Below, piece by piece: positions 8,441 to 20,071 of a stretch of 64,000 nt of DNA (position 1 is its first letter; every line of letters begins with the position of its first letter). The stretch comes from an uncultured bacterium (GTDB lineage Bacteria; Patescibacteriota; Patescibacteriia; SG8-24; DYFX01), in NCBI GenBank assembly GCA_937900255.1, contig CALCDZ010000001.1, positions 57,988-121,987 on the forward strand, written 5' to 3'. The notes beneath the pieces were generated by a model, which saw only the letters and a program-made list of their open reading frames with translations, was not told the origin of the DNA and searched no databases. Position numbers and translations under genes: made by a program.

Positions 8441-9499
8441 ATGGCGTTTCTTGCCCGATCAAAACCCAGCTATCTCGGCATCGACTTCGGCGCGGGCGGC
8501 ATCAAGCTCGTCGAGTTGATGAACGAGAAAGGACGGGCGCGCCTCGTCACCTACGCGTTCATCGAGCGCCCGGTGGCCGAAATGCCGCACGGTTACGTCG
8601 ACGATCCGACCGCGACGGCGGAGTTGCTGAAGAAGATGCTCAAGAAGGCGAAGACGACGACGAGAAAGGCCGTGTCGGCCCTGCCGATCGCCTCGGTCTT
8701 CAGTTCCATCATCAGCGTCCAGAAGTCCTCGAAACGGGAAGAACTGGAACAATCCGTCCAATACCAGGCCAAGAAGCTGATTCCGCTGCCGCTTGAAGAG
8801 ATGTCGGTCGACTGGAAACCGCTCGCGGCGCCCTCGCAGGATCCCGAGGAGAAATATCTCCAGGTGCTGCTGACGGGAGCGGCCAAGACGCTGATCGGGA
8901 AGTATACCGGCATTTTCGCGGCGGCCGGACTCGAACTGCTCAGTCTCGAGACGGAGGCGCTGGCGATGATCCGTTCCCTGATCGGGCGCGACCGTTCGCC
9001 GACGCTGGTGCTCGATATCGGGACCGTCCGGACGAACATCCTGATCGTCGAGAATGGCATCCCGCTCGTCAGCCGGAGCGTCGCGCAAGGGGGGGCGACC
9101 GTCACCAGGGAAATGTCTTCGGCGTTGGGCGTGCCCGAAGACCAGGCGGAGAGCATGAAGATCGACGCCTCCGCGATGGCGGCGATGTACGAAAACGGTT
9201 TCCCCAAGCTGTTCGAAAACGCGTTGGCTCCGATCCTTTCGGAACTCACGTATTCGACCAACCTGTTCCTCGGGCAGAAGGCCAACGAGAACAAGCGTCT
9301 GGACAAGATCATCCTGACCGGCGGCGGCGCCCTGCTGCCGCAATTGGCGGATCATCTTTCCAAGGCGATGAATCTGCGCGTCTATATCGGCGATCCTTGG
9401 GCCCGGGTCGTCTACCCGGAGGCCTTGCGTCCCGTGCTCAACCAGATCGGGCCGCGGTTCGCGGCTGCGGTCGGTTTGGCGATGCGCGACATCGATTGA
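8441..9499 (+). CDS. pilM: type IV pilus assembly ATPase-like protein PilM
   Basis: MAFLARSKPSYLGIDFGAGGIKLVEL... actin-like fold typical of PilM. RBS GGAGG at 8435-8439. Extended -10 TGTGCTATACT at 8405-8415. Confidence 0.85.
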   Translation: MAFLARSKPSYLGIDFGAGGIKLVELMNEKGRARLVTYAFIERPVAEMPHGYVDDPTATAELLKKMLKKAKTTTRKAVSALPIASVFSSIISVQKSSKREELEQSVQYQAKKLIPLPLEEMSVDWKPLAAPSQDPEEKYLQVLLTGAAKTLIGKYTGIFAAAGLELLSLETEALAMIRSLIGRDRSPTLVLDIGTVRTNILIVENGIPLVSRSVAQGGATVTREMSSALGVPEDQAESMKIDASAMAAMYENGFPKLFENALAPILSELTYSTNLFLGQKANENKRLDKIILTGGGALLPQLADHLSKAMNLRVYIGDPWARVVYPEALRPVLNQIGPRFAAAVGLAMRDID

Positions 9500-9500
9500 T

Positions 9501-10418
9501 ATGGACGACATCAACCTGCTCACGGGCGCTCATGCGCCGAAAGAAACCAAATCCGGCGTCCGTCCTTCTCCGACTCCGAGCGAGGATGAAATGGCCCTGC
9601 ATGTGCCGGAACCTGATCCTGGCGCGCCCGAACCTCCACCCGCCGATTTCCTGAAGCCCGAATCCGCCATATCCGGAAAAAAAAAGGAGCCTGATGCCCC
9701 CGCGGCGACCGTGCGCGAACCCGCTCTGGCGCGACCGTCCGTGAAGATGTCCGAACCGGCCGTGGCTGCCTCCGTACCGCCCATCGAAGAAGCCGGCGGA
9801 GGGACGCTGCGGGTAAGCCTGATCACGACCGGATCCGAAGCCGGTTTCTCGGAAATCGCGCTCAATCGGCGTCTCAGGTCTTTTGCCTTGGTCGGCGTGG
9901 CGGGACTTCTCGTCGATGCGCTGATTTTCGGCGGCCTGACCTTCCGACAGATCCAGGTGGAAGCACGGAACGCCGATATCGATCGTCAGGTGAAGGACGT
10001 CGATGCGCAGATCGCCGCGCGCGAAAAGGCGCTTTTCCCGGCGCGGGATTTCCAACAGTTGATCCGCGCCGAACAGTCGGTGCTGGAGAACCACGCGCAT
10101 TGGAGCGGGGTCCTCAGGCTCCTTGAGGAAACGGCCTTGCCGCAGGTGCAGTTCGGCGGGCTGTCCGGAGCGGAATCGGGTACCCTTAACTTCGAGGTCT
10201 TCGCCCGCGACTACACGACGCTGGCGAAACAGATCGTGGCGTTCCGCCAGGATTCCAGGGTGAGGAAGGTCGTCTCGGGGACGGCCTCCGCGGATTTCGG
10301 GGAAAACGACCTGCTGAAAGGCGTCCGTGCGGAGATGACCTTGACCGTCGACCCCGACGTCTTCAAATACGCGCCGGAACGCGAGATCACCGGATCCGCC
10401 ACGGCCACGACATCCTGA
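9501..10418 (+). CDS. pilN: PilN-like pilus assembly protein with a long Pro/Ala-rich N-terminal insertion
   Basis: Starts MDDINLLTG (PilN-type INLL motif), has a single TM (FALVGVAGLLVDALIFGGL) then a coiled region. Lies immediately after pilM. Confidence 0.7.
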   Translation: MDDINLLTGAHAPKETKSGVRPSPTPSEDEMALHVPEPDPGAPEPPPADFLKPESAISGKKKEPDAPAATVREPALARPSVKMSEPAVAASVPPIEEAGGGTLRVSLITTGSEAGFSEIALNRRLRSFALVGVAGLLVDALIFGGLTFRQIQVEARNADIDRQVKDVDAQIAAREKALFPARDFQQLIRAEQSVLENHAHWSGVLRLLEETALPQVQFGGLSGAESGTLNFEVFARDYTTLAKQIVAFRQDSRVRKVVSGTASADFGENDLLKGVRAEMTLTVDPDVFKYAPEREITGSATATTS

Positions 10419-10428
10419 TGACTCTCCC

Positions 10429-18061: not shown

Positions 18062-18656
18062 AAACGTCCCGCGCGGACAATCCTTCATCGAGGCGATGGT
18101 GGCGATCGGCGTCATCATCTCTTCGGTTTCCAGCTCGCTGGCGCTGGTGCAGTCCTCGATCACGGCCACGACGAAAGGCGGCGCGCAGGTCGTCGCCGCC
18201 AATCTGGCGCGCGAGGGTGTGGAAGTGGTCCGCGCGGCGCGCGACACGAATTGGCTCAAGGGCCGGGGATTCCAAGTCGGCTTGATCGACCCCGGCGGCG
18301 ACAAGACCGTCCGTCCGATCCTCGACAGGGCCGCCGGCACGTGGACGCTCTCGTTCCTCCCCACGTCGCTTTCATCTTCGAACGCCGACGTTTACGTCAC
18401 GGATGAAGGCCTCTATCTGCAGGCGGACGCTCAACCGAGCGGCAGCGCGGTCAGCCCGTACGCGCGCACGGTCACGCTGCTGCATCTCTGCCGGGACGAC
18501 GCATCGGGGACGGAGCGTGCGGTCGGAGGGTCCGGGACGTGCTCTGGGTCCGAGACGTTGGTCGGCCTGCTGGTCGATTCCGACGTCCGGTGGCGCGGTG
18601 TCGGAGGCCGGTTTCAGACGTTGACGGTCGAAGAACGCCTCTATGATTGGCGCTAG
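18054..18656 (+). CDS. minor pilin / pseudopilin
   Basis: MTRNVPRGQSFIEAMVAIGVI (G|QSFIE with E at +5). Overlaps neighbouring genes. Confidence 0.65.
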   Translation: MTRNVPRGQSFIEAMVAIGVIISSVSSSLALVQSSITATTKGGAQVVAANLAREGVEVVRAARDTNWLKGRGFQVGLIDPGGDKTVRPILDRAAGTWTLSFLPTSLSSSNADVYVTDEGLYLQADAQPSGSAVSPYARTVTLLHLCRDDASGTERAVGGSGTCSGSETLVGLLVDSDVRWRGVGGRFQTLTVEERLYDWR

Positions 18657-19230
18657 GCGCGGTCTCACTCTGATGGAACTCCTGGTCGTCATGGGCGTCT
18701 TCAGCCTGACGGTCACGATCGCTTCCGCCATCTTCATCCAATCGAACCGCGCGCAGCGGCGGGTCTTGGCGTTGACGACGGCGCAGGCCGATGTCCGGTT
18801 CGCGCTGGAGGCGATCGTCCGCGAGGTCCGCGGCGGGCAGGTCGATTATGCGACCTATGAACGTTCCGGCGGCGTGCCTATTCCCGCGGCTGCGCTGCTG
18901 ATCAAGAGCGCCGATGGACGCCACTTGAAATTCCACGCCTCGACCGACCCCACGGTCTGTCCCGGGAACGTGGCCGGATGCTTGGCGGTCGACGTCGATG
19001 GCCAGACCCAGAGCGTCACTTCTTCCGGCGTCAACCTCCAGTCCCTGACGTTTTTCATCAGTCCTCAGGCCGACCCCTTCTCCGTCGACGAAGCGAGCGG
19101 CCTCTACAAGGCCGACAGCCAACCGCTCGTGACCGTCTCCATGAAAGTCAAGGTGGCGGGATCGAAGACGGAAGACGCAGCCGTCCTGTCCGCCCAGACG
19201 ACCGTAGCCTCGAGAGCCTATGTCCGTTGA
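18643..19230 (+). CDS. minor pilin / pseudopilin (PilW-like)
   Basis: MIGARRGLTLMELLVVMGVFSL (G|LTLME with E at +5). Confidence 0.65.
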   Translation: MIGARRGLTLMELLVVMGVFSLTVTIASAIFIQSNRAQRRVLALTTAQADVRFALEAIVREVRGGQVDYATYERSGGVPIPAAALLIKSADGRHLKFHASTDPTVCPGNVAGCLAVDVDGQTQSVTSSGVNLQSLTFFISPQADPFSVDEASGLYKADSQPLVTVSMKVKVAGSKTEDAAVLSAQTTVASRAYVR

Positions 19231-20071
19231 CGCGCGATCGCGAGGCAACGTGCTGCTCATGGCGCTGCTCGTGATGAGCGGCGTCTTGATCGTTGGCGCT
19301 TCTCTCGGCACCATCTCGCTCCTGAGTCTCCGGCAGGCACGCGCCATCGACGATTCGGTCGTGGCGTTCGGAGCGGCGGAGTCCGGCGCCGAACAGACGC
19401 TCTATCAGATCCGCCGGGCGGGGACTCCGAGCGCGACGCTCGCGGCCAATCCTCGCGACGACTCTTCTCCGGCCCTGTCCGGAGTGCCGATGGGCAACGG
19501 TTCCAGCTGGAGCCGTTCGCTGGCGGCGAACGAGACGACCGTCTTCGCTTCCATCCCGAAGGAGAAGACCTATGAAGTCGTCTTATGGGACCCCGACGCG
19601 CCGAGCTCCCCCGCAGGGGTCGAATCTCTCGCGTTTTCCTGGAACGATGCCTGCGGCGGCACCTCAGGGCTTGAAGTGTTGACGGCAGGGTGGGACCCAG
19701 CGGCCTCGGGCAGCTTCGCTCCGATCGTGGCGTTCCACGGCGATTCCCCGGCCTTGACCTTCCTTCATGCGGCGACGAGGGTCATCGACAACGATTTCGC
19801 TTCCGGAAAGGCATATCGTGTACGGCTGCGCGCCAAGACCTGCGATATCACGGATCTGGCCATCAGCGCGTATCGTGCCGATAACGCGACCGGCGGGCAG
19901 GTCCCGATCCCTTCGAGAATCTCCATCGGCGCTACCGGCACGTATCATGCCTCCCGCCAGGCCTTGGAACTCAGGCTGCCGCGGCTCCAACCGCTCTCGG
20001 GAGCGTTCGATTTCGTCATCTTCAGCCAGTGCTCTTTGTTGAAAGGCGTGACAGGAACCCCTTGCCCATGA
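19220..20071 (+). CDS. PilX-like pilus-associated protein
   Basis: N-terminal [23 protein letters not shown] resembles the PilX N-terminus. It is the last gene of the pilin block. Confidence 0.5.

What the first reader, a model, noticed from the sequence alone, without database searches (positions are those of the whole stretch)
8441..20071. Complete secretin-less type IV pilus locus with an embedded response regulator
Order: pilM, pilN, pilO, small PilP-like, pilB, CheY-like regulator, pilC, pilin-like ORF, three pilins, pilD, four minor pilins. No pilQ secretin and no pilT retraction ATPase appear in the window. This may indicate a monoderm-type envelope or a non-retractile pilus; that is inference limited to the 64 kb seen. 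The receiver-only regulator between pilB and pilC suggests phosphorelay control of extension.
Basis: partly seen in the sequence, partly recalled or inferred. Interest (0 to 1): 0.55.

Follow-up and report, generated by a model that had tools for sequence, protein, structure and literature searches.

The report
CPR pilus operon with built-in receiver
This is a complete type IV pilus gene cluster from an ultra-small CPR (Patescibacteria) bacterium; the missing secretin is normal for this group, and the modestly new parts are a CheY-like receiver gene kept between the motor genes across a large CPR clade and a clade-wide loss of the retraction ATPase gene from the cluster.

Summary
All 15 genes are present in the stated order at 8441-20071, and no secretin or PilT is encoded anywhere in the 64 kb.

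The organism is a high-GC Patescibacteria (CPR) bacterium. For that group, single-locus T4P without pilQ is already published and already read as a non-Gram-negative envelope, so that part is ordinary.

Comparison with about 85 related loci adds three points.
1. The 129-aa receiver is a canonical phospho-receiver: D15/D16/D58/T88/K110 are conserved in 45 of 49 orthologues. It is as conserved as PilB and sits 7 nt after pilB and 3 nt before pilC.
2. Gene order is nested on a PilB tree. Outgroups have pilB-pilT-pilC, one CPR clade has pilB-RR-pilT-pilC, and a sub-clade containing the window has pilB-RR-pilC. The receiver therefore predates a single loss of pilT from the locus and outlived it.
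3. Two orphan secreted proteins (2732-8367) are always linked upstream.

The most likely mechanism is a kinase-fed receiver that binds the PilB/PilC motor, as EmvR and DrdR do. That is inferred, not shown.

Whether pilT lies elsewhere in the genome could not be tested. Stand-alone pilT genes do exist in other CPR, so "non-retractile" is unproven.

The parts
2732..4159 (+). big1: 475-aa secreted orphan protein with GWAWS..GWI repeats. Its N-terminal ~209 aa are conserved upstream of pilM in relatives.
   Evidence: No Pfam hit. A signal-peptide-like N-terminus is visible in the sequence. Syntenic in about 30 loci.
4156..8367 (+). big2: 1403-aa secreted Cys-rich protein with CxDGxDNDxNGxxDC repeats. 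Its conserved C-terminal ~260 aa are probably a beta-solenoid.
   Evidence: No Pfam or PDB sequence match. ATGA overlap with the big1 stop. The C-terminal domain is always directly upstream of pilM. The AF2 core has pLDDT 70-93, but fold matches to ice-binding-type beta-helices are only borderline.
8441..9499 (+). pilM, actin-like cytoplasmic alignment protein
   Evidence: PF11104 8e-45. TIGR01175 165 bits against a cutoff of 133.
9501..10418 (+). pilN-like protein: N-terminal DINLL motif, long Pro-rich linker, one TM segment, coiled coil, ferredoxin-like core
   Evidence: The motif is conserved in orthologues. Profile against M. xanthus PilN gives E=0.35. The AF2 model's best fold hits are PilO (3jc8_Oa) and the GspL periplasmic domains PulL, EpsL and XcpY.
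10429..11001 (+). pilO
   Evidence: PF04350 1.6e-5, 25.6 bits against a cutoff of 22.
10998..11261 (+). p87: small TM-anchored protein with a nearly invariant C-terminal GRxNPF motif. It occupies the PilP position, but homology to PilP is not shown.
   Evidence: Alignment A2. No PilP hit in any of 14 members.
11271..13025 (+). pilB, the assembly ATPase and the only T2SSE-family ATPase in the window
   Evidence: PF00437 4e-124 plus MshEN. PilB and GspE models each score about 508 bits. Catalytic and Zn-Cys motifs are present.
13033..13422 (+). Stand-alone CheY-like receiver, 129 aa, with no output domain
   Evidence: PF00072 4e-25. D15/D16/D58/T88/K110 are conserved across 49 syntenic orthologues. 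It lies 7 nt after pilB and 3 nt before pilC. It is as conserved as PilB.
13426..14634 (+). pilC, platform protein
   Evidence: PF00482, two repeats, 5e-59. PilC and GspF models score 333-340 bits.
14631..15008 (+). Minor pilin p121. The leader is MNKG|MSALG and Glu5 is lost in this genome.
   Evidence: Orthologues have KG|(L/M)TLVE. It is 26-33% identical to pilA1 and pilA2. GTGA overlap with the pilC stop.
15066..15548 (+). pilA1, major-type pilin (G|FTLIELLVV)
   Evidence: N_methyl 1.6e-9.
15587..16060 (+). pilA2, a tandem paralogue 80% identical to pilA1
   Evidence: N_methyl 1.1e-9. Identity.
16136..16681 (+). pilA3, a third pilin with a longer leader. The residue at -1 is Ala here and Ala or Gly in relatives.
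   Evidence: N_methyl 8.5e-6. Orthologue N-termini.
16681..17457 (+). pilD, prepilin peptidase / N-methyltransferase
   Evidence: PF06750 7e-31 plus PF01478 3e-10. Two CxxC pairs and both Asp motifs are present.
17435..18061 (+). Minor pilin 1, GspH/FimU-like (G|FTLVE)
   Evidence: N_methyl. Weak GspH match.
18054..18656 (+). Minor pilin 2 (G|QSFIE)
   Evidence: The motif is conserved in orthologues. Weak Tt1218-like pilin hit.
18643..19230 (+). Minor pilin 3 (G|LTLME)
   Evidence: N_methyl at the cutoff. TIGR02532.
19220..20071 (+). Minor pilin 4, PilX/GspK-like, without Glu5 (G|NVLLM)
   Evidence: Weak PilX_N hit, E=0.0097. Orthologues.
25768..27540 (+). Candidate partner kinase, the only histidine kinase in the window. 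Layout: TM, ~160-aa extracytoplasmic domain, TM, PAS, HisKA, HATPase. It has no adjacent response regulator.
   Evidence: Pfam. TM scan. The pairing with the receiver is inference only.

Best explanation
The region is the type IVa-like pilus operon of a high-GC Patescibacteria (CPR) bacterium. It builds a pilus across a single-membrane envelope, so it needs no secretin.

**Components**
- PilM, PilN, PilO and a small TM protein form the membrane alignment complex.
- PilB is the motor and PilC the platform.
- PilD processes three major-type pilins and five minor pilins.

**The receiver**
A stand-alone CheY-like receiver is encoded tightly between pilB and pilC, so it is very probably made together with the motor. 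I propose that a membrane histidine kinase phosphorylates it on Asp58, possibly the orphan kinase at 25768-27540. I further propose that the phosphorylated receiver binds the cytoplasmic motor (PilB and/or the PilC N-terminal domain or PilM) to switch pilus assembly on or off in response to an external cue.

**pilT**
The ancestral locus had pilT right after the receiver. This clade lost pilT from the locus but kept the receiver.

**Shown versus inferred**
- Shown: gene identities, synteny, residue conservation and the order of evolutionary events.
- Inferred: phosphorylation, the identity of the kinase, and direct binding to the motor.
For: - **Gene identities:**
- **Organism:** all close PilB relatives are Patescibacteria.
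- **Operon structure:** the genes form a co-directional array with gaps of -23 to +82 nt, and promoter and terminator matches are at chance level.
- **Receiver residues:** a canonical acidic pocket, phospho-Asp, Thr/Ser and Lys are all present in 45 of 49 syntenic orthologues; each position individually is conserved in 46-49 of 49.
- **Receiver constraint:** mean identity to the window is 54.5%, against PilB 51.8%, PilC 44.3% and PilM 45.2%.
- **Order of events:** nested states on the PilB tree put the receiver before the pilT loss. The second ATPase in the sister clade scores above the TIGR01420 PilT cutoff.
- **Independent confirmation of gene order:** pilB-RR-pilT-pilC in L085-L087.
- **Kinase link:** in L056 a same-subfamily receiver (42% identical; MPKMDG, LLTNL, YLIKxxxxP) sits beside a membrane histidine kinase inside a pilus locus.
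- **Precedents for receiver-only proteins binding T4P motors:**
  - EmvR binds PilB and represses its ATPase (PMC11973254).
  - DrdR binds PilB and PilT and stimulates both (PMC13507683).
  - PatA-type regulators bind PilB1 and the PilC N-terminus (10.1101/2021.06.11.447907).
Against: - There is no direct evidence of any interaction or phosphotransfer.
- In the Synechocystis precedent the PATAN domain binds PilB1, not the receiver domain, and plain CheY-type regulators did not bind the motor.
- Four lineages (L008, L004, L006, L034) depart from the canonical residue pattern but keep the gene. L006 has lost the phospho-Asp, L034 carries Glu there, and L008 has only a conservative D16E change. 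This suggests a role that does not strictly need phosphorylation.
- The kinase lies 12 kb downstream, and its linkage in relatives could not be examined.
- The PilB tree is a neighbour-joining tree without support values.
- CPR genomes are long co-directional gene arrays, so tight spacing is weaker evidence of functional coupling than it would be elsewhere.
Confidence: 0.55

Rival explanations
1. The receiver is a phosphorylation-independent structural or localisation cofactor of the pilus machine. It would resemble the degenerate REC domain of FimX or the atypical receiver domain of TadZ/CpaE, rather than a signalling switch.
For: - Degenerate copies are retained as intact ORFs in L004 (GDDAK), L006 (ADGAK, with the beta3-alpha3 loop deleted) and L034 (RDETK).
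- The gene's position suggests it is made stoichiometrically with PilB and PilC.
Against: - 45 of 49 orthologues keep every phosphorylation residue, and conservation is as high as for PilB.
- L056 pairs the same receiver type with a kinase.
- The degenerate copies evolve fast (34-52% identity where PilB is 78%). That looks like relaxed constraint in one small sub-lineage, not the ancestral state.
Confidence: 0.15
2. The receiver is unrelated to pilus function. It could be a phosphate sink or a relay component of some other pathway that simply rides in a long CPR gene array.
For: - CPR genes are packed in long co-directional arrays. Here ligA and gatCAB follow the pilus genes with gaps of 1-13 nt.
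- The receiver's sequence is generic. Its nearest solved relatives are the RpaA, PleD, RR468, CheY and DivK receivers.
Against: - Its exact position immediately after pilB is kept in about 50 loci, down to 43% PilB identity.
- That position survived both the loss of pilT and an insertion of sugar-modification genes in L027.
- In L056 it lies elsewhere, but still within a pilus locus.
Confidence: 0.1
3. The pilus is retractile after all, because a pilT gene lies elsewhere in the genome outside the 64-kb window. The 'non-retractile' reading would then be wrong.
For: - A stand-alone pilT (pth-pilT-pilM...mfd-dprA), away from pilB and pilC, exists in Kerfeldbacteria-type CPR.
- TM7x has one locus with pilT and one without (PMC11623550).
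- pilT homologues are reported in most CPR phyla.
Against: - pilT is absent from the 64-kb window and from the +/-10 kb flanks of about 30 related loci.
- Among the 120 best hits to the sister-clade PilT and the 120 best hits to the stand-alone PilT, none lies on a contig whose length matches the long contigs or chromosomes of the pilT-less clade: 1,167,441; 1,084,458; 1,522,766; 646,312; 322,067; 231,065; 207,481 bp.
- That evidence is weak, because both lists are cut at about 43-48% identity.
Confidence: 0.3
4. The machine makes a short pseudopilus, in the manner of T2SS or Com systems, for protein export or DNA uptake rather than a long surface pilus.
For: - The pilins' best NCBIfam match is GspG (7e-13, below cutoff), and PilB scores equally on the GspE and PilB models.
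- There is no PilT in the locus.
- CPR T4P have been proposed to take up DNA (PMC7143001).
Against: - A PilM/PilN/PilO set is present and a fused GspL is not.
- The ComGA model scores below its cutoff, 243 against 300 bits.
- There are eight pilin genes, including a GspH/I/J/K-like tip set.
- The sister clade has a PilT-family ATPase in the same locus.
- TM7x pili, including those of the pilT-less T4P-2 system, are seen as filaments by cryo-ET (PMC11623550).
Confidence: 0.1

Closest known systems
Type IV pili of Patescibacteria/CPR (Nanosynbacter lyticus TM7x T4P-1 and T4P-2; Microgenomates bacterium Ch65)
   Same: - The core set is the same: pilM/N/O, pilB, pilC, pilD and several pilins in one locus.
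- There is no pilQ, which the literature reads as a non-Gram-negative envelope (PMC7143001).
- TM7x locus 2 also lacks a retraction ATPase (PMC11623550).
   Different: - Those descriptions mention no receiver, CheY or two-component gene in the loci.
- Here a stand-alone receiver sits between pilB and pilC and is conserved across a large clade.
- Two orphan secreted proteins are linked upstream.
- The genome is unusually GC-rich for CPR, at 62%.
EmvR (Xanthomonas oryzae) and DrdR (X. campestris): receiver-only regulators that bind T4P motor ATPases
   Same: - They contain only a REC domain and no output domain.
- EmvR is a single-domain orphan RR phosphorylated on Asp59. It binds PilB and represses its ATPase.
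- DrdR binds PilB and PilT and stimulates both.
- This is the mechanism I propose for the window's receiver.
   Different: - EmvR and DrdR are orphan genes outside the pilus operon in diderm Proteobacteria.
- DrdR has two REC domains.
- No interaction data exist for the CPR protein.
- Orthology was not tested and is unlikely given the generic REC similarity.
PilG/PilH of the Pil-Chp chemosensory system (Pseudomonas aeruginosa)
   Same: They are single-domain CheY-like regulators that control T4P extension and retraction polarity and PilB localisation (PMC11656802).
   Different: - PilG and PilH are fed by a CheA-type kinase (ChpA) with an MCP and CheW. No such genes occur in the window.
- No direct PilG-PilB interaction has been reported.
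PatA-type (PATAN-REC) regulators PixE/PixG of Synechocystis
   Same: They are response regulators that act by binding PilB1 and the PilC N-terminal domain at the membrane.
   Different: - The output there is the PATAN domain, which the 129-aa CPR protein lacks.
- Plain CheY-type regulators did not bind the motor in that study.
T4P of monoderm Firmicutes (Streptococcus sanguinis, Clostridium perfringens)
   Same: They are secretin-less T4aP-like machines with PilMNO, PilB, PilC, PilD and several pilins. This comparison rests on general knowledge; PMC11656802 cites C. perfringens PilB2.
   Different: As far as I know, those systems encode PilT and have no operon-embedded receiver. I did not test this here.

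Membership tests
Type IVa pilus system (T4aP) | PilB-type hexameric assembly ATPase with Walker A/B, Asp and His boxes and a tetra-Cys motif | tested here: met
   PF00437 4e-124. TIGR02538 508 bits, which is below the equivalog cutoff and equal to the GspE score. All motifs are present.
Type IVa pilus system (T4aP) | PilC platform protein with two T2SSF repeats | tested here: met
   PF00482, two stretches, 5e-59.
Type IVa pilus system (T4aP) | PilM, PilN and PilO alignment proteins as separate genes, not a fused GspL | tested here: met
   - PilM scores above the TIGR01175 cutoff.
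- PilO scores above the PF04350 cutoff.
- PilN rests on the INLL motif, its topology and fold hits to PilO and GspL periplasmic domains, at E of 0.005-0.04. On its own the PilN call is only moderately supported.
Type IVa pilus system (T4aP) | Prepilin peptidase and pilins with a class III signal (G|FxxxE) | tested here: met
   PilD has PF06750 plus PF01478. Seven of the eight pilin-like genes have a G/A|xxxxE site or a GspK-like variant, and p121 has lost Glu5.
Type IVa pilus system (T4aP) | PilT retraction ATPase | tested here: not met
   There is none in the 64-kb window or in the flanks of about 30 related loci. It is present in the sister clade's loci. The rest of the genome could not be tested with these tools.
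Type IVa pilus system (T4aP) | PilQ secretin with PilP (required in diderms only) | tested here: not met
   No ORF in the window matches a secretin. p87 does not match PilP. This absence is expected for CPR (PMC7143001).
Stand-alone CheY-like response regulator (REC only) | A REC domain with the acidic pair, phospho-acceptor Asp, Thr/Ser and Lys, and no output domain | tested here: met
   PF00072 4e-25 over 129 aa. D15/D16/D58/T88/K110 are all present in 45 of 49 orthologues. One unusual point: Lys110 is followed by Ala-His rather than the usual Pro (the comparison with other RRs is from my own knowledge).
Stand-alone CheY-like response regulator (REC only) | Phosphorylation by a cognate histidine kinase | not testable with these tools
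   One orphan kinase lies in the window at 25768-27540. In L056 a kinase sits beside the same receiver type.
Receiver-only regulators that bind T4P motors (EmvR/DrdR type) | Physical interaction with PilB (and PilT) and modulation of ATPase activity | not testable with these tools
   Only synteny and conservation are available.
Pil-Chp PilG/PilH | Encoded with, and fed by, a chemosensory CheA/CheW/MCP module | tested here: not met
   No CheA, CheW or MCP domain appears in any scanned ORF of the window.
PatA-type regulators | An N-terminal PATAN domain | tested here: not met
   The protein is 129 aa and REC only.
Com (ComG) pseudopilus / T2SS | Com: a ComGA/GB set without PilMNO. T2SS: GspD secretin, GspC and a fused GspL. 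| tested here: not met
   ComGA scores 243 bits against a cutoff of 300 and ComGB 119 against 240. PilM, PilN and PilO are present, and there is no secretin.

The most novel reading that the evidence does not exclude
In the pilT-less clade, the operon-encoded receiver is a core subunit of the motor. Its phosphorylation state would switch the single ATPase PilB between polymerising and depolymerising pilins. That would make a one-motor, phospho-switchable, bidirectional type IVa pilus, doing by signalling what the Tad ATPase CpaF does on its own. The loss of pilT would then have been made possible by the earlier gain of the receiver.
Probability: 0.06. Interest if true: 0.8.

Novelty: new variant of a known kind. 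Interest (0 to 1): 0.35.

Why it matters
CPR bacteria make up a large share of bacterial diversity. They live attached to other microbes, and their type IV pili are essential for host attachment and twitching in the few cultivated strains. How these minimal cells decide when to extend pili is unknown.

A receiver gene that sits inside the motor operon of a whole CPR clade gives a concrete, testable handle on that question. It has intact phosphorylation residues and is as conserved as the motor itself. CPR genomes encode very few signalling proteins, so a dedicated kinase-receiver-pilus link would probably be one of their main sensory outputs.

The nested pattern of receiver gain followed by pilT loss also provides a natural experiment on how T4aP machines function without a dedicated retraction motor.

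The secretin-less aspect itself carries no new information.

Tried and rejected
1. **Reading beyond the window.** Looking up proteins near both window ends returned only short contigs or nothing.
2. **Indirect pilT test.** I searched the protein database with the sister-clade PilT and with a stand-alone CPR PilT, then matched the 'longest_contig' values to the long contigs of the pilT-less clade. There were no matches, but both lists are truncated, so the test is not decisive.
3. **p87 as a truncated PilP.** No PilP hit appeared in any of 14 members, so the idea remains a lead from memory only.
4. **big2 C-terminal domain related to PilX-like tip pilins.** The hhalign probability was 0.4%, so I rejected it. 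There were no Pfam or PDB sequence matches. The AF2 model had low confidence (pLDDT 55.7), and fold matches to ice-binding-type beta-helices were only borderline.
5. **Kinase linkage in relatives.** The window's kinase lies beyond the 10-kb flanks of the related loci, so nothing could be learned about it there. A kinase-receiver pair inside a pilus locus was found only in L056.
6. **The 2.8-kb gap between RR and pilC in L027.** I suspected a hidden pilT. It holds GtrA and two epimerase genes instead.
7. **Promoter and terminator scan.** It was uninformative, at chance level.
8. **Literature.** I found no paper describing a receiver in CPR pilus loci. The library is limited to open-access papers and bioRxiv.
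9. **Taxon labels.** The 'uncultured Gammaproteobacteria' and 'Saccharibacteria' labels on the TPA_asm records are inconsistent with the Patescibacteria labels of the most similar records and with the shared locus architecture. I judged them unreliable and did not use them.

Full report
**1. Observation**

The window is about 62-63% G+C, so I chose ORFs by third-position GC and then by family searches.

- pilM: PF11104 8e-45; TIGR01175 165 bits against a cutoff of 133.
- A 305-aa pilN-like gene.
- pilO: PF04350, 25.6 bits against a cutoff of 22.
- An 87-aa TM protein.
- pilB: T2SSE 4e-124 plus MshEN.
- A receiver-only protein: PF00072 4e-25.
- pilC: two T2SSF repeats.
- A pilin-like ORF.
- Three pilins with N_methyl motifs.
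- pilD: A24_N_bact plus Peptidase_A24.
- Four minor pilins.

PilB has Walker A, the Asp box, Walker B, the His box and the tetra-Cys motif, and PilD has both CxxC pairs and both Asp motifs. Pfam scans of essentially all other sizeable ORFs in the 64 kb found no second T2SSE ATPase and no secretin. The long antisense ORFs have a shadow-frame GC pattern; one shorter one (16659-17402) has GC3 of 0.80 and is not excluded that way.

**2. Corrections to the gene model**

- The 'pilin-like ORF' starts at the GTG at 14631, overlapping the pilC stop by 4 nt. Its orthologues carry canonical KG|(L/M)TLVE prepilin sites, so it is a real minor pilin that has lost Glu5 in this genome.
- pilA3 has Ala at position -1 here. 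Relatives have Ala or Gly.
- Minor pilins 2 and 3 have G|QSFIE and G|LTLME. Minor pilin 4 has no Glu5 and a weak PilX_N hit, like GspK and PilX.
- The PilN call rests on four things:
  - a conserved N-terminal (D/E)I(N/S)LL motif; that this motif binds PilM is from my own knowledge;
  - one TM segment;
  - a weak profile hit to M. xanthus PilN, E=0.35;
  - a single-sequence AF2 model (pLDDT 62.7) whose best fold matches are PilO of the M. xanthus machine and the GspL periplasmic domains PulL, EpsL and XcpY, with E of 0.005-0.04 and target TM-scores of 0.64-0.72.
- The 87-aa protein has a TM anchor and a nearly invariant C-terminal GRxNPF motif. None of 14 family members hits Pfam PilP, so 'PilP-like' remains positional.

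**3. Organism**

The PilB protein also occurs on a 24-kb ENA metagenome contig with identical gene content. Of 80 related genomic loci, all those with at least 41% PilB identity whose labels are credible are Patescibacteria/CPR: Paceibacter, Uhrbacteria, Moraniibacteriota, Collierbacteria and others. The best are about 80% identical. NCBI taxonomy places Paceibacter in the phylum Minisyncoccota, kingdom Bacillati.

For CPR, the literature already reports T4P genes at a single locus without pilQ and reads this as a non-Gram-negative envelope (PMC7143001). It also reports a second TM7x pilus locus that lacks a retraction ATPase (PMC11623550). The 'secretin-less' part of the finding is therefore ordinary for this group. 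The monoderm inference is supported by taxonomy, not by anything specific to the window.

**4. Comparative architecture**

Mapping the window's proteins onto the related loci shows one architecture kept in about 30 loci. These span all relatives with 53% or more PilB identity and several at 51-52%. The order is big1, big2, pilM, pilN, pilO, p87, pilB, RR, pilC, pilins, pilD, minor pilins, ligA.

On a neighbour-joining PilB tree, which has no support values, the states are nested.

- Non-CPR outgroups and Microgenomates-type CPR have pilB-pilT-pilC.
- One CPR clade has pilB-RR-pilT-pilC: Parcubacteria-type loci including Moraniibacteriota and Paceibacterota.
- A single sub-clade within it, containing the window and the Uhrbacteria-type loci, has pilB-RR-pilC.

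The second ATPase scores above the TIGR01420 PilT/PilU cutoff: 345-458 bits against 319. Independent contigs found through PilT (L085, L086, L087) confirm pilB-RR-pilT-pilC with precomputed Pfam calls. The simplest reading is one gain of the receiver followed by one loss of pilT from the locus.

**5. The receiver**

It is 129 aa, REC only. It starts 7 nt after the pilB stop and ends 3 nt before the pilC start.

Across 49 syntenic orthologues:
- the acidic pair is conserved (D15 in 46, D16 in 48);
- the phospho-acceptor D58 is present in 47;
- T/S88 is present in 47;
- K110 is present in all 49.

There are also subfamily signatures: Y23, K26, MPKMDG, (L)TNL and YxIKxHxxP.

It is at least as conserved as PilB. 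Mean identity to the window among relatives with PilB below 70% is 54.5%, against 51.8% for PilB, 44.3% for PilC and 45.2% for PilM. Its nearest solved relatives are ordinary receivers: RpaA, PleD, RR468, CheY and DivK.

There are four exceptions.
- L008 has only a conservative D16E change but is 61% identical where PilB is 81%.
- L004 has lost D15 and T88.
- L006 has lost D15, D58, T88 and the beta3-alpha3 loop, and is 34% identical where PilB is 78%.
- L034 has lost D15 and carries Glu in place of D58.

All four keep an intact ORF in the same place.

Because an intact receiver persists in the clade that lost pilT from the locus, its target is unlikely to be PilT alone.

**6. Kinase**

The window has one histidine kinase, at 25768-27540. 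Its layout is TM, a ~160-aa extracytoplasmic domain, TM, PAS, HisKA and HATPase, and it has no adjacent response regulator. It is too far downstream to fall within the flanks of the related loci, so its linkage to the locus is untested.

In L056, a pilB-pilT-pilC locus, there is a 129-aa receiver of the same subfamily (42% identical, sharing MPKMDG, LLTNL and YLIKxxxxP). It lies divergently next to a small membrane histidine kinase, between pilC and the pilin and pilD genes. This is one example, but it links this receiver type to a kinase within a pilus locus.

**7. pilT and pilQ elsewhere**

I could not search the rest of the genome.

Indirect tests gave the following.
- The 120 best database hits to the sister-clade PilT include none on a contig whose length matches the long contigs or complete chromosomes of the pilT-less clade listed. 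The same holds for the 120 best hits to a stand-alone CPR PilT. Both lists stop at about 43-48% identity, so this is weak evidence.
- A stand-alone pilT-pilM pair, next to pth, mfd and dprA and far from any pilB or pilC, exists in Kerfeldbacteria-type CPR. Relocation of pilT is therefore a real possibility.
- Motor-independent retraction is documented in other systems (10.1101/2021.03.09.434644; 10.1101/497933).

'Non-retractile' therefore cannot be concluded.

**8. Upstream module**

Two Sec-signal proteins with no Pfam or PDB sequence match lie directly upstream of pilM in the window. They are big1 (2732-4159, GW repeats) and big2 (4156-8367, Cys-rich DND repeats plus a conserved C-terminal ~260 aa). 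They occupy the same position in about 30 relatives. In a 4-sequence AF2 model, the big2 C-terminal core is all-beta with pLDDT 70-93 there and 55.7 overall. Its resemblance to ice-binding-type beta-helices is only borderline. It is unrelated to the PilX-like minor pilin. The function is unknown. The linkage suggests a surface or pilus-associated role, but nothing was shown.

**9. Mechanism and rivals**

Best-supported explanation, at about 0.55: a monoderm-type T4aP machine whose motor is gated by a co-expressed, kinase-fed CheY-like receiver that binds PilB and/or PilC or PilM.

Precedents for receiver-only proteins binding T4P motors:
- EmvR binds PilB and represses its ATPase (PMC11973254).
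- DrdR binds PilB and PilT and stimulates both (PMC13507683).
- PatA-type regulators bind PilB1 and the PilC N-terminus, but through their PATAN domain.
- For PilG and PilH, no direct PilB interaction is known.

Rivals:
- a phosphorylation-independent structural cofactor, 0.15, supported by the decayed copies;
- an unrelated passenger gene, 0.10, argued against by synteny down to 43% PilB identity;
- a pseudopilus rather than a pilus, 0.10.

Separately, I put the chance that pilT is encoded elsewhere in the genome at about 0.3.

**10. Novelty and score**

A secretin-less T4P locus in a CPR genome is already known. Two things appear undescribed in the searchable literature.
- The stand-alone receiver is a conserved, operon-embedded component of the pilB-(pilT)-pilC core across a large CPR clade.
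- There is a nested pattern of receiver gain followed by pilT loss.

Both parts belong to known kinds, namely T4aP machines and receiver-only motor regulators, so I rate this a new variant of a known kind. Interest is moderate at 0.35. It is useful to CPR and T4P specialists as a testable regulatory handle, but it is not surprising in principle.

Noticed in passing
window 33330-41800: A tRNA-Asn gene at 33330-33404 sits at the edge of a low-GC block (0.53-0.59 against 0.62-0.65 elsewhere). The block carries an Amidase_6 gene and a type I restriction-modification system, HsdM at 36071-37522 and HsdR at 38686-40989. It is probably an island integrated at the tRNA.
   Followed up: no
window 2732-8367: Two orphan secreted proteins lie directly upstream of pilM here and in about 30 related loci. 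One has GW repeats. The other is a 1403-aa Cys-rich DND-repeat protein with a conserved C-terminal domain that is probably a beta-solenoid. Neither matches any family.
   Followed up: partly
L083 6001-8148 (and L084): Kerfeldbacteria-type CPR genomes carry a stand-alone pilT-pilM pair between pth and mfd/dprA, far from any pilB or pilC. About 40 proteins form this PilT sub-family at 57-69% identity.
   Followed up: partly
L056 6961-9670: In a Microgenomates-type pilus locus, a receiver of the same subfamily as the window's lies divergently next to a small membrane histidine kinase, between pilC and a pilin gene.
   Followed up: partly
L008 6116-6481; L004 11748-12125; L006 11752-12102; L034 1995-2348: The receiver decays progressively in one sub-lineage, at 61%, 52% and 34% identity while PilB stays at 78-81%. 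The decay includes loss of the phospho-Asp and a loop deletion in L006. L034 shows a similar decay. The ORF stays intact and in place in all of them.
   Followed up: partly
L027 3190-5893: A GtrA-like membrane protein and two NAD-dependent sugar epimerase/dehydratase genes are inserted between the receiver and pilC. They may serve pilin glycosylation.
   Followed up: no
window 10998-11261: The small TM protein after pilO has a nearly invariant C-terminal GRxNPF motif across 14 orthologues. No family is assigned.
   Followed up: partly
window 42628-42701: ARAGORN calls a tRNA-Val inside the Polysacc_synt ORF (41780-43219), but the Rfam scan does not find it. It is probably a false positive.
   Followed up: no
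window 54041-56668 and 31401-33329 (-): Two further large, probably surface, proteins are present: an 875-aa protein with G8 and CEMIP beta-helix domains, and a 642-aa protein with a Big_5 domain.
   Followed up: no
loci: Many TPA_asm MAG records labelled 'uncultured Gammaproteobacteria' or 'Saccharibacteria' carry this CPR-type locus. They are up to 83% identical in PilB to the window and to records labelled Patescibacteria. I judge those organism labels unreliable.
   Followed up: no
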